Assembly (NCBI RefSeq): GCF_057098645.1
Contig: NZ_CM169472.1
Direction: 5' to 3' (one strand)
Length of the DNA stretch: 64,000 nt
The position numbers are program-made. Shown here in pieces: positions 12,001 through 15,000 of this stretch. Positions within the stretch are counted from its first letter, which is position 1, and each line of letters starts with the position of its first letter.

Positions 12001-15000
12001 GGAAGAGCGGACCGGGCAATGTATGAGGGTAAGCTAACCGGAAGAAATCGCTGCATGTTTATTGACGAACAAAACGTGATTAACCGAGTTTAAGCTCCGT
12101 TTAACATTTATTGAGAAAACTGATGCTACTGTGTCAACGATCCGTTATCAGTGCAGGAAAATGCCTGTTAGCGTAAAAGCAAAACACAAATCTATCCATG
12201 CAAGCATTCACCGCCGGTTTACTGGCGGTTTTTTTTCGCCGTCATAAAAATCAGGCCCCTTGTACACAACTGTAACAAGGGGCCGGTTAGGTGAGGGATT
12301 ATCTCCGTTCATTAGTCATCCCATTTGTGGCTGAAATACGCGGCCAGAAAACCAGAAAATAAAATTATTCCCAGTACGGCCATAAAAACATTCATATTAC
12401 CCAGCATTATTTGCCTCCGTTTATGGTGTGGTGTGTTTCCTCGCTTACCTTAATTTTCATCTCAATGAGAAAGATATTAGCAGAGGTAACCTAAACGAAG
12501 GCTGAATTAAATCTTTATTGTGTTCGACTTAAATCAACAAAGCGCGGGCTGCCCCCACGGTTTTGCACGAATCCCTTTTAACATCAGTACCCACGCAGCA
12601 ATAATCACCAACGCTAAGATGATAAACAGCGAGGAAGGCGGCAGGTTAGTTAGTACTAGGCCACTCACTAATGGGTTAATTGCGGCACCAAGCCAGCCTA
12701 AAGACTGGGCGGAAAAATAGCTGGCTTTCATTCCTGGCGGCGCAATATGGTCAATCAACATATACTCGCCCGGCGCATAAATTATTTCACCGACAGTAAA
12801 TACCGCAGCTGACATACCCCACAATAGCAGGCTGTTTCCGGAAAAAATAAAACCGACCAGACCGATGACGAAACAGAGGGTGCCTGCTGTCATCAGCGCG
12901 CGGATGTTAGCCGGGTTAAGTCGGCGGCCCACGGAATATTGCAACGTAACTACCATGGCGGCATTCACCGGAAGAACAACCGCGACCACCTTTTCGGCAA
13001 AATCACCATCAGCAATCACCATCACATATTGTGAAATGCATGAAGCAAATGCGCCACTAACAAAAGAAGCCAGAAAGCCAGAGCAGGTAAACCACAACAG
13101 TGCCTTATCTTGTAATAAAACTTTCGGCGACCAGACACTGCCTGTTTCCGTGGCGATGATTTTCTCGCTGCGCTTTACCCAAATTTGAATGAAAAACATG
13201 GGAAACGCAGAGCAGATAGCGGCCAGCCAAAAGGGCAGATTGATGCTCTGCATGACCAACAGCGTGCCGAGTGGCGGGCCGACGGTCCAGCCAATATTGA
13301 GCATGGTGTAGTTGATCGAGAAGATCTTCGTTTTGCTGGTGGATGAAAGATTGTCGGCAAACCAGGCTTTCAACACTGTGGCAAAAACGGAATAGGCGCA
13401 GTTGATGAGTGCGAAAAAAAGTACCACCAGCGTGACGCTGTCCACCAGGGGAATAGCAATAAAACCGCTGGCGAAGGCCGTAATTGCCAGTAACATATAG
13501 CGTTTCTTGTCGAACTTATCCGCCAGGATACCAAAACCGAGGCTAAAAACGACGCCAATAGTGAGCGCAATTGTCATTGCATAACCAATGAGATCGATAC
13601 TCAGGCTGTACTGACGACTTAAGTAAATGGTCATAAATGGCAGCGTAGCGCCGCGTCCGATGGTTAATAACAACGACGAGGCAAGAAGGGCGCTGGTAGA
13701 GCGTCGTAGGGATAAGTTCATTTGTCTGTCCGGCAGTGCGTTTCGTTATGTTTTGTTTTAGAGATGTAAAGAAATAGCATGGCAAAAATCCGAAGTATAG
13801 CGACTTATTTGCGCATTAATGCCGTCGTAACCGGCGACTAGCGAATCAACTGTTAAAGAAAAGTAAATTCAGCTAAGTTGATTGCTTACAAAAGATGAAA
13901 TTCAGAGGCGGTAGAATGTCGCGAAAAGATGGGGTGTTGGCGCTACTGGTAGTGGTCGTATGGGGGCTAAATTTTGTGGTCATCAAAGTGGGGCTTCATA
14001 ACATGCCACCGCTGATGCTGGCCGGTTTGCGCTTTATGCTGGTCGCTTTTCCGGCCATCTTTTTTGTCGCACGACCGAAAGTACCACTGAATTTGCTGCT
14101 GGGGTATGGATTAACCATCAGTTTTGCGCAGTTTGCCTTTCTCTTCTGCGCCATTAACTTTGGTATGCCTGCTGGACTGGCTTCGCTGGTGTTACAGGCT
14201 CAGGCGTTTTTTACTATCGTGCTTGGCGCGTTTACTTTCGGTGAGCGACTGCATGGCAAACAATTGGCGGGGATCGCCTTAGCGATTTTTGGCGTAGTGG
14301 TGTTAATCGAAGATAGTCTGAACGGTCAGCATGTGGCGATGCTCGGCTTTATGTTGACCCTGGCGGCAGCATTTAGTTGGGCGAGTGGCAATATCTTCAA
14401 CAAAAAGATCATGTCTCATTCATCCCGTCCGGCGGTAATGTCTCTGGTTGTCTGGAGCGCATTAATCCCGATAATTCCGTTTTTTGTCGCCTCGCTCATT
14501 CTCGATGGCTCCGGAAAAATGATTCACAGTCTGGTCACTATCGACATGACCACCATTCTGGCGTTGATGTATCTGGCATTTGTAGCGACGATAGTTGGCT
14601 ACGGGATTTGGGGTACGCTGCTTGGACGCTATGAAACATGGCGTGTCGCACCATTATCATTACTGGTGCCGGTAGTCGGTCTGGCAAGTGCAGCGTTACT
14701 GCTGGATGAACGCTTAACAGGTCTGCAATTCTTAGGGGCTGTGCTCATTATGGCCGGACTGTATATCAATGTATTTGGTTTGCAGTGGCGTAAAGCAGTG
14801 AAGGTAAGAGGTTAACAAGCCCCGATATGCCGGGGCCTGAATATACTACATGGCTTGTTGGTTATAATAGGGCACGCCCAGCGCATCCGATTTGTCACTG
14901 CCTGTACCCATGTGATTTAAATCGAACGGTGGTTGTTCCTGCGATGGGGGAACAACCACCACATCGCCACAGGAAGTAACGAGCGGTTGCTGGGTTTGTT

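What the first reader, a model, noticed from the sequence alone, without database searches (positions are those of the whole stretch)
12094..12410. MgrR sRNA and MgtS 31-aa protein between dgcZ and ydeE
A roughly 98-nt unit ending in a strong terminator (ccgccgg-ttta-ctggcgg plus T8) follows dgcZ. A 31-codon minus-strand ORF matching recalled MgtS lies about 75 bp beyond it. Both fall below the resolution of the ORF track and would be missed by ORF-only annotation.
Basis: partly seen in the sequence, partly recalled or inferred. Interest (0 to 1): 0.3.

Follow-up and report, generated by a model that had tools for sequence, protein, structure and literature searches.

The report
Known MgrR sRNA and MgtS gene
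This stretch of an E. coli chromosome holds two well-studied magnesium-stress genes, the 98-nt regulatory RNA MgrR and the 31-residue membrane protein MgtS.

Summary
The observation and the interpretation both hold.

- **mgrR** lies at window 12139-12236 (+). It is 98 nt and differs from E. coli K-12 mgrR (b4698) at one base. It ends in the stated hairpin plus U8. It scores 280 bits (E 5e-64) against Rfam RF01407, which is named STnc560, the Salmonella name for this RNA.
- **mgtS** lies at 12312-12407 (-). It encodes the exact K-12 MgtS peptide and passes the Pfam (88 bits) and NCBIfam equivalog (81 bits) cut-offs.
- **The gap** between them is exactly 75 bp.
- **Promoters:** both genes have a PhoP-type direct repeat ending 12 nt upstream of a -10 hexamer. 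This geometry is conserved in Escherichia, Citrobacter and Salmonella arizonae.

One is the conserved mgtS intrinsic terminator (hairpin 12254-12284, with a published Term-seq 3' end at 12249). The other is the annotated 34-codon mgtT ORF (12208-12312), which starts on the mgtS stop codon, runs through that terminator and ends antisense to the MgrR terminator. Across species mgtT shows no coding signature, and its length varies from 9 to 66 codons.

Verdict: already known, low interest.

The parts
12098..12114 (+). PhoP-box-like direct repeat of the mgrR promoter (CGTTTA-acatt-TATTGA). A third upstream half-site, AGTTTA, lies at 12087-12092 in Escherichia.
   Evidence: yGTTTA-N5-yATTGr ends exactly 12 nt upstream of the -10 hexamer in 19 of 19 species. 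GTTTA and ATTG are invariant in alignment A2. PhoP/PhoQ dependence is taken from the literature (PMC6239178; bioRxiv 2021.06.30.450655).
12124..12132 (+). Extended -10 element of mgrR (TGc TACTGT)
   Evidence: TG.TA...T is invariant across 19 species. It lies 6 nt upstream of the annotated 5' end at 12139. The generic sigma-70 scan does not find it because there is no -35 element.
12139..12236 (+). mgrR, the 98-nt Hfq-dependent small RNA. nt 5-35 form a 5' stem-loop, nt 36-71 are an unpaired A-rich (ARN) and seed region, and nt 72-91 form the terminator hairpin followed by U8.
   Evidence: K-12 b4698 mapped through A1. Rfam RF01407, 280 bits. MFE -25.9 kcal/mol, z = -2.9, with the same architecture as the published probing (PMC6239178). 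94% of pair cells are kept in 16 sequences, against 25-49% in slid controls. The centre is 89% invariant.
12254..12284 (-). Hairpin of the mgtS intrinsic terminator, followed on the minus strand by GAUUUUUAU (U-run 12250-12246)
   Evidence: -22.6 kcal/mol, z = -3.6. 97.9% of cells are paired in 18 species, 3 pairs have compensatory changes, and 0 of 500 shuffles reach the covariation score. Term-seq 3' end at K-12 1622804(+) = window 12249 (PMC7815308 supplementary file 1).
12208..12312 (-). mgtT (b4775), an annotated 34-codon ORF. Its ATG overlaps the mgtS stop (TAATG). Codons 10-23 are the mgtS terminator, and codons 26-34 are antisense to the MgrR terminator (29-nt overlap with mgrR).
   Evidence: RefSeq annotation. 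Pfam PF23498, 96 bits. No NCBIfam model. Translation evidence from Weaver 2019 (bioRxiv 10.1101/511675), PMC11429745 and PMC12350097. No coding signature, and ORF length of 9-66 codons across species.
12312..12407 (-). mgtS (formerly yneM), encoding the 31-aa inner-membrane protein MLGNMNVFMAVLGIILFSGFLAAYFSHKWDD. Its GGAGG Shine-Dalgarno sequence is at 12418-12414.
   Evidence: 25-31 of 31 residues are identical in 18 loci. Variable columns by codon position are 8/4/22.
12474..12508 (-). mgtS promoter: PhoP-box-like repeat AATTCA-gcctt-CGTTTA (12508-12492), a 12-nt spacer, and the -10 hexamer TAATAT (12479-12474)
   Evidence: rrTTCA-N5-kGTTTA-12 nt-TAnTAT in 15 of 18 species. The E. coli copy is weaker (4 mismatches to the 17-mer consensus), so one search missed it. 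A PhoQ-dependent reporter is described in PMC11429745.

Best explanation
The interval holds a convergent pair of PhoQ/PhoP-activated low-magnesium genes that is already well characterised in E. coli.

**mgrR (12139-12236, + strand).** It is transcribed from an activator-dependent promoter (PhoP box plus extended -10, no -35) into a 98-nt RNA. The RNA binds Hfq through its U8 tail and A-rich (ARN) centre. It uses the unpaired centre to base-pair with target mRNAs, chiefly eptB across its start codon. This represses a lipopolysaccharide phosphoethanolamine transferase.

**mgtS (12312-12407, - strand).** It is transcribed from its own PhoP-box promoter and ends at a conserved hairpin plus U-run (3' end about 12249). 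It encodes a 31-residue single-helix inner-membrane protein that raises levels of the MgtA Mg2+ importer.

**The 75-bp spacer.** It is made of the two back-to-back terminators. The annotated mgtT ORF is read through them.

**Shown here:** the identity, boundaries, structures, promoter geometry, coding signature and conservation of these elements.

**Taken from the literature, not tested here:** PhoP dependence, Hfq binding, eptB repression and MgtA stabilisation.
For: **Identity**
- Rfam RF01407, 280.2 bits against a gathering score of 55, E 4.9e-64.
- K-12 annotation of mgrR, mgtS and mgtT; only 2 differences in 461 aligned nt.
- MgtS passes Pfam PF22865 (88.2 against 27 bits) and the NCBIfam NF033842 equivalog (80.6 against 35 bits).

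**MgrR structure**
- The fold is a 5' stem-loop, an open centre and a terminator. It has z = -2.9, and 0 of 200 shuffles fold as well. It matches the enzymatic probing in PMC6239178.
- Pairs are kept in 94% of cells across 16 sequences.

**mgtS as a coding gene**
- Variable columns by codon position are 8/4/22.
- Its terminator is supported by covariation and by a Term-seq 3' end.

**Promoters and synteny**
- Both promoters have a PhoP-type repeat at a fixed 12-nt distance from the -10 hexamer across genera.
- The mgrR-mgtS pair stays convergent at 135-175 nt spacing in all 18 enterobacterial loci that reach far enough, while the flanking genes change. dgcZ is absent in S. arizonae, and ydeE lies 0.36-6.3 kb away.

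**Mechanism**
- The predicted pairing of MgrR nt 54-69 with eptB -7 to +9 falls on the published site, which overlaps the AUG (PMC6239178; PMC7815308).
- Function and PhoQP induction are described in bioRxiv 2021.06.30.450655 and PMC11429745.
Against: Nothing contradicts the identification. The weak points are these:
- Covariation in MgrR itself is thin: only 2 pairs have double changes, because the sequences are close and were selected with an exact 19-mer of the core.
- The eptB duplex energy is not better than shuffles (67 of 500 do as well).
- The PhoP-box consensus scan alone is at chance level, and the E. coli mgtS box is a poor match to the consensus.
- The primary papers (Moon & Gottesman 2009; Wang 2017; Yin 2019) were not available to read. 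Functional statements therefore rest on papers that cite them.
Confidence: 0.97

Rival explanations
1. The 98-nt unit is only the 3' UTR and terminator of dgcZ, not an independent small-RNA gene.
For: It starts 45 nt after the dgcZ stop codon on the same strand, and no other terminator lies between them.
Against: - It has its own conserved PhoP-box and extended -10 module with fixed spacing.
- In S. enterica arizonae, dgcZ is absent and ydeI is the upstream gene, yet the RNA gene and its promoter are intact.
- In Salmonella, STnc560 is a discrete Hfq-bound RNA of about 90 nt (PMC2515195).
- K-12 annotates a 98-nt ncRNA.
- In C. amalonaticus the RNA gene sits without dgcZ or mgtS nearby.
Confidence: 0.02
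2. mgtT (12208-12312) encodes a functional 34-residue protein in its own right, co-translated with MgtS from one operon.
For: - It is annotated in RefSeq and has a Pfam family, PF23498.
- Ribosome initiation peaks and a chromosomally tagged product have been detected (bioRxiv 10.1101/511675; PMC11429745).
- PIRT-Seq detects translation in this frame (PMC12350097).
- The start overlaps the mgtS stop in all 18 loci.
Against: - ORF length is 9, 14, 30, 34, 42, 45, 60 or 66 codons in different species, and 14 in eight Citrobacter-type loci.
- There is no third-position bias: 4/8/8 against 8/4/22 for mgtS.
- Most of the sequence is dictated by two terminators.
- The mapped main 3' end of the mRNA (window 12249) lies 39 nt before the stop codon begins.
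- It is not membrane-associated, and it has no deletion or overexpression phenotype (PMC11429745).
- The conserved ATG doubles as part of a tandem stop (TAA-TGA or TGA-TGA) in the mgtS frame.
Confidence: 0.2
3. The 31-codon minus-strand ORF is a chance ORF in an intergenic region.
For: It is very short, and many ORFs of 20-40 codons occur by chance nearby.
Against: - It passes two curated family models with E of 1e-23 to 1e-25.
- It shows a coding signature across species.
- It has a GGAGG Shine-Dalgarno sequence 7 nt upstream.
- The peptide is near-invariant across three genera.
- Protein function is published.
Confidence: 0.01

Closest known systems
MgrR small RNA of E. coli K-12 (b4698) = Rfam RF01407 STnc560 of Salmonella
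   Same: - Same locus and strand relation to dgcZ and mgtS, and same 98-nt length.
- 97 of 98 nt identical.
- Same 5' stem-loop, A-rich centre plus seed, and terminator plus U8.
- Same promoter, apart from one base in the third hexamer.
   Different: - C instead of U at MgrR nt 4 (window 12142), in the unpaired 5' end.
- T instead of C at 12109 in the promoter.
- No functional difference is expected.
MgtS (YneM) small membrane protein, Pfam PF22865 / NCBIfam NF033842
   Same: Identical 31-residue sequence to K-12, and the same convergent arrangement with mgrR.
   Different: None detected.
MgtT (b4775), Pfam PF23498
   Same: Identical 34-codon ORF and the same TAATG overlap with mgtS as in K-12.
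   Different: Nothing differs from K-12. However, the family as a protein does not extend beyond Escherichia in the loci sampled.
Other PhoP-activated small genes and Class II Hfq sRNAs (mgrB; ChiX, CyaR, McaS)
   Same: - Same type of PhoP-box promoter that replaces the -35 element.
- MgrR shares the ARN plus U-tail mode of Hfq binding with Class II sRNAs (PMC6239178).
   Different: These have different sequences and targets. They are analogies of mechanism, not homologues.

Membership tests
MgrR / Rfam RF01407 (STnc560) | Scores above the family's curated gathering threshold | tested here: met
   280.2 bits against 55. Full model 1-214 matched, E 4.9e-64.
MgrR / Rfam RF01407 (STnc560) | An RNA of about 98 nt ending in a Rho-independent terminator with a long U tail, with a 5' stem-loop and an unstructured A-rich centre | tested here: met
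   Boundaries 12139-12236 taken from K-12. The fold agrees with the probing in PMC6239178. Pairs are kept in 94% of cells.
MgrR / Rfam RF01407 (STnc560) | Convergent with and adjacent to mgtS/yneM | tested here: met
   mgtS lies 135-175 nt downstream of the core, on the opposite strand, in the window and in 18 loci. Sittka 2008 lists STnc560 and the yneM transcript in the same intergenic region.
MgrR / Rfam RF01407 (STnc560) | PhoP-dependent promoter (PhoP box in place of -35) | tested here: inconclusive
   The motif and its 12-nt spacing to the -10 hexamer are conserved in 19 of 19 species. The consensus scan alone is at chance level. PhoP binding and dependence cannot be tested in silico and are known from the literature.
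MgrR / Rfam RF01407 (STnc560) | Seed complementary to the eptB translation start region | tested here: met
   MgrR nt 54-69 pair with eptB -7 to +9, which is the published site overlapping the AUG. The energy alone is not significant against shuffles (67 of 500).
MgrR / Rfam RF01407 (STnc560) | Hfq binding and Hfq-dependent stability | not testable with these tools
   Only the sequence determinants (ARN stretch, U8) are visible.
MgtS (PF22865 / NF033842) | Passes the curated HMM cut-offs over the full length | tested here: met
   Pfam 88.2 against 27 bits. NCBIfam equivalog 80.6 against 35 bits. Residues 1-31 of 31 matched.
MgtS (PF22865 / NF033842) | Evolves as a protein-coding sequence | tested here: met
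   Variable columns by codon position are 8/4/22. 25-31 of 31 residues are identical across three genera.
MgtS (PF22865 / NF033842) | Stabilises MgtA, acts on PitA, and localises to the inner membrane | not testable with these tools
   Literature only. The hydrophobic core VFMAVLGIILFSGFLAAYF can be read directly from the sequence.
MgtT (PF23498) | Passes the Pfam cut-off | tested here: met
   96.3 against 27 bits. There is no NCBIfam model.
MgtT (PF23498) | Conserved as a protein outside Escherichia | tested here: not met
   ORF length varies from 9 to 66 codons, the C-terminal two-thirds are unrelated between species, and there is no codon-position bias.

The most novel reading that the evidence does not exclude
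The short ORF annotated as mgtT may not be a protein gene. It may be a translated read-through switch.

In every species sampled, an ORF starts on the mgtS stop codon. In 17 of 18 it runs into or through the 5' arm of the mgtS terminator hairpin; in the other it stops at the hairpin's edge. A ribosome coupled from mgtS could therefore hinder hairpin formation and let RNA polymerase read past 12249. In Escherichia the MgrR terminator lies only 17 nt from the foot of the hairpin. Read-through there would produce RNA perfectly antisense to the 3' end of MgrR. That would link the output of the two convergent PhoP-activated genes, through sponging, RNase III cleavage or transcriptional interference.

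The evidence does not exclude this reading, and it does not test it either.
Probability: 0.08. Interest if true: 0.45.

Novelty: already known. Interest (0 to 1): 0.1.

Why it matters
The finding matters little as a discovery. MgrR, MgtS and MgtT are annotated in E. coli K-12 and have been studied experimentally since 2009-2019.

It has some practical value:
- It shows the first-stage reader can recognise sub-ORF-scale genes from raw sequence.
- It shows that automatic annotation is uneven here. The closest RefSeq/PGAP record lacks mgrR altogether.

The side observation is the only part that might repay an experiment. The MgtT sequence is essentially two terminators read in frame, and the main mgtS transcript ends before the mgtT stop codon.

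Tried and rejected
- **PhoP-box consensus scan** (KGTTTA-N5-KGTTTA, up to 3 mismatches). It gave 191 matches against 173 +/- 13 expected, so it is uninformative. It also missed the E. coli mgtS box, which has 4 mismatches. I replaced it with conservation and spacing analysis.
- **Generic sigma-70 scan.** It found neither promoter, as expected for activator-dependent promoters without a -35 element. The terminator scan missed the mgtS terminator because its stem has a bulge.
- **Full-length MgrR-eptB duplex prediction.** It was meaningless, because shuffles scored better. The version restricted to the centre gave the right site but was not significant.
- **Fold of the whole mgtS-mgtT mRNA.** Not distinguishable from shuffles (z = -1.5).
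- **Primary papers.** Moon & Gottesman 2009, Wang 2017, Yin 2019, the journal version of Weaver 2019 and the EcoSal small-proteome review were not held. One PMC id that I guessed was an unrelated paper.
- **NCBIfam.** It has no MgtT model.
- **Genome scan.** It used an exact 19-mer of the MgrR core, so it recovered only Escherichia, Citrobacter, S. arizonae and one misnamed MAG. It says nothing about Klebsiella, Enterobacter or S. enterica subsp. enterica. One hit, in a Clostridia MAG inside an unrelated coding region, was a chance match.
- **Large searches.** I did not run the large protein-database or structure searches, because the curated models had already settled the identity.

Full report
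**1. What is there**

The window is E. coli chromosome. The 801 bases around the finding match O145 strains at 99.9% and occur in 5416 of 5426 complete E. coli genomes.

- dgcZ ends at 12093, and ydeE occupies 12534-13721 on the minus strand.
- The K-12 MG1655 record annotates three small genes between dgcZ and ydeE: mgrR (ncRNA, 98 nt), mgtS (31 codons) and mgtT (34 codons).
- Aligning K-12 to the window shows 2 differences in 461 bases.
- The alignment places mgrR at 12139-12236 (+), mgtT at 12208-12312 (-) and mgtS at 12312-12407 (-).

**2. Is it more than chance?**

Yes.
- Rfam gives a single hit in the whole 64-kb window. It is RF01407 (STnc560) at 12105-12318, 280 bits against a gathering score of 55, E 4.9e-64.
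- The family carries the Salmonella name. Sittka et al. 2008 list STnc560 as an RNA of about 90 nt, enriched 29-fold with Hfq, in the ydeI/ydeE intergenic region. It lies opposite the ~190-nt yneM (= mgtS) transcript (PMC2515195).
- The peptide passes Pfam MgtS-like (88 against 27 bits) and the NCBIfam small_MgtS equivalog (81 against 35 bits).

**3. Anatomy of MgrR**

- The 98-nt RNA folds into a 5' stem-loop (nt 5-35), an open A-rich centre, and a terminator hairpin (nt 72-91) followed by U8.
- The MFE is -25.9 kcal/mol, z = -2.9, and no shuffle of 200 folds as well.
- This is the architecture found by enzymatic probing, which also places the (ARN)5 motif and the target-pairing region in the open centre (PMC6239178).
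- I scanned the species-representative genomes with the MgrR core and obtained 21 loci. Nineteen are enterobacterial in sequence: Escherichia, Citrobacter, S. enterica subsp. arizonae, a MAG labelled Raoultella, and a MAG labelled Caldithrix that carries E. coli-like sequence.
- In 16 distinct sequences the two helices are paired in 94% of cells, against 25-49% when partners are slid. Only 2 pairs show changes on both sides. The structure is therefore conserved but weakly supported by covariation.
- The central 36 nt are 89% invariant. Part of that comes from ascertainment by the 19-mer used in the scan.

**4. Mechanism check**

- I took the eptB 5' region from K-12. The open centre of the window's MgrR is predicted to pair through nt 54-69 with eptB -7 to +9.
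- The published pairing site "overlaps the AUG start codon" (PMC6239178).
- Deleting mgrR alters eptB transcripts (PMC7815308).
- The duplex energy by itself is not significant: 67 of 500 shuffles do as well.
- The single base that differs from K-12 within the RNA (nt 4) lies in the unpaired 5' end, outside the seed.

**5. MgtS**

- The peptide is identical to K-12 MgtS.
- Across 18 loci, 25-31 of 31 residues are identical.
- Substitutions fall 8/4/22 on codon positions 1/2/3, which is a clear coding signature.
- The literature describes it as a PhoQP-induced inner-membrane protein that increases MgtA levels (bioRxiv 2021.06.30.450655; PMC11429745).

**6. PhoP boxes**

- The plain consensus scan is at chance level.
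- Conservation is informative. Upstream of mgrR, yGTTTA-N5-yATTGr ends exactly 12 nt before a TAnnnT -10 hexamer preceded by TG, in 19 of 19 species.
- Upstream of mgtS, rrTTCA-N5-kGTTTA ends exactly 12 nt before TAnTAT in 15 of 18 species.
- Both promoters lack a -35 element.
- Dependence on PhoQ/PhoP is experimental knowledge from the literature. It was not tested here.

**7.

The 75-bp gap consists of functional elements.

*The mgtS terminator*
- On the minus strand, a hairpin (12284-12254, -22.6 kcal/mol, z = -3.6) is followed by GAUUUUUAU.
- It is paired in 97.9% of cells in 18 species. Three pairs have compensatory changes, and 0 of 500 shuffles reach its covariation score.
- Published Term-seq data place a 3' end at K-12 1622804(+), which maps to window 12249 in the U-run. 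They also place a very strong 3' end at the MgrR terminator (PMC7815308 supplementary file 1).

*mgtT*
- The annotated mgtT ORF starts on the mgtS stop codon (TAATG).
- It reads through this hairpin (codons 10-20) and U-run (codons 21-23).
- It ends antisense to the MgrR terminator (codons 26-34, EKKPPVNRR = A8 + CCGCCAGTAAACCGGCGG).
- A transcript ending at 12249 carries only 21 of the 34 codons and no stop codon.
- Across species the ATG and about 13 codons are kept, but the ORF is 9, 14, 30, 34, 42, 45, 60 or 66 codons long. Its substitutions show no third-position bias, at 4/8/8.
- The spacer between the two terminators varies from 13 to about 50 nt.
- Translation of mgtT in E. coli is documented, but no phenotype is known.
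- My reading is that the conserved features of this stretch are RNA elements, and that a functional MgtT protein is doubtful. This is inference.

**8. Synteny**

- The mgrR-mgtS pair stays convergent and adjacent in every locus that extends far enough.
- The neighbours change. dgcZ is replaced by ydeI in S. arizonae, and ydeE lies 0.36 to 6.3 kb away.
- In C. amalonaticus, mgrR sits without mgtS within 700 nt.

**9. Verdict**

The feature is already known, and interest is low. The only loose end worth an experiment is whether translation of mgtT across the mgtS terminator has a regulatory role.

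Noticed in passing
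window 12208-12312 (-): The annotated mgtT ORF is essentially the two terminators read in frame. The mapped main 3' end of the mgtS mRNA (12249) lies 39 nt before its stop codon begins. ORF length is 9-66 codons across species, with no coding signature.
   Followed up: yes
window 12407-12460 (-): A 17-codon ORF (MKIKVSEETHHTINGGK) lies in the mgtS leader. Its TAA stop overlaps the mgtS ATG (TAATG). It is the only ATG-started ORF on this strand between ydeE and mgtS, so it is probably the 'CDS58' reported by PIRT-Seq (PMC12350097). It is intact only in E. coli proper. It is lost through a frame shift or loss of the ATG in a divergent E. coli lineage, E. albertii, E. whittamii, Citrobacter and S. 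arizonae.
   Followed up: partly
window 45275-45291 (+) and 46279-46295 (-): A perfect PhoP-box consensus (TGTTTAGTCACGGTTTA) is followed 11 nt later by a -10-like CATAAT. It lies about 260 nt upstream of a fimA-like fimbrial subunit gene next to hipA. A second box with one mismatch lies just downstream of that gene. This could be a PhoP-dependent fimbrial promoter or a chance match in AT-rich DNA.
   Followed up: no
L006 (SMXE01000224.1, 'Caldithrix sp.' MAG): This contig carries mgrR, mgtT and mgtS identical to E. coli, and ydeE and eamA at 97% protein identity. That almost certainly means E. coli-type contamination or misbinning in the MAG.
   Followed up: partly
L016 (Citrobacter amalonaticus): mgrR is present with its PhoP box and terminator, but there is no mgtS within 700 nt downstream and no dgcZ within 3.3 kb upstream. 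The otherwise constant mgrR-mgtS pair can therefore be split.
   Followed up: partly
window 12105-12318: The Rfam RF01407 model (214 positions) is much wider than the 98-nt RNA. It starts 34 nt upstream of the 5' end, so its first predicted hairpin covers the -10 promoter element. It also runs through the mgtS terminator into the last codons of mgtS.
   Followed up: partly
L001 (NZ_CP028379.1), equivalent to window 12139-12236: The RefSeq/PGAP annotation of the closest strain lists mgtS and mgtT but has no feature for mgrR. The curated K-12 record has it.
   Followed up: no
window 12229: Term-seq places the dominant MgrR 3' end at K-12 1622824, the first U of the U8 run. That is 7 nt short of the annotated end (1622817). 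It may reflect trimming or how homopolymer runs are mapped.
   Followed up: no
window 10556-10948 (+): ydeI is an intact 130-codon ORF in the window, but it is flagged as frameshifted in the otherwise 99.9%-identical O145 strain RM9872.
   Followed up: no
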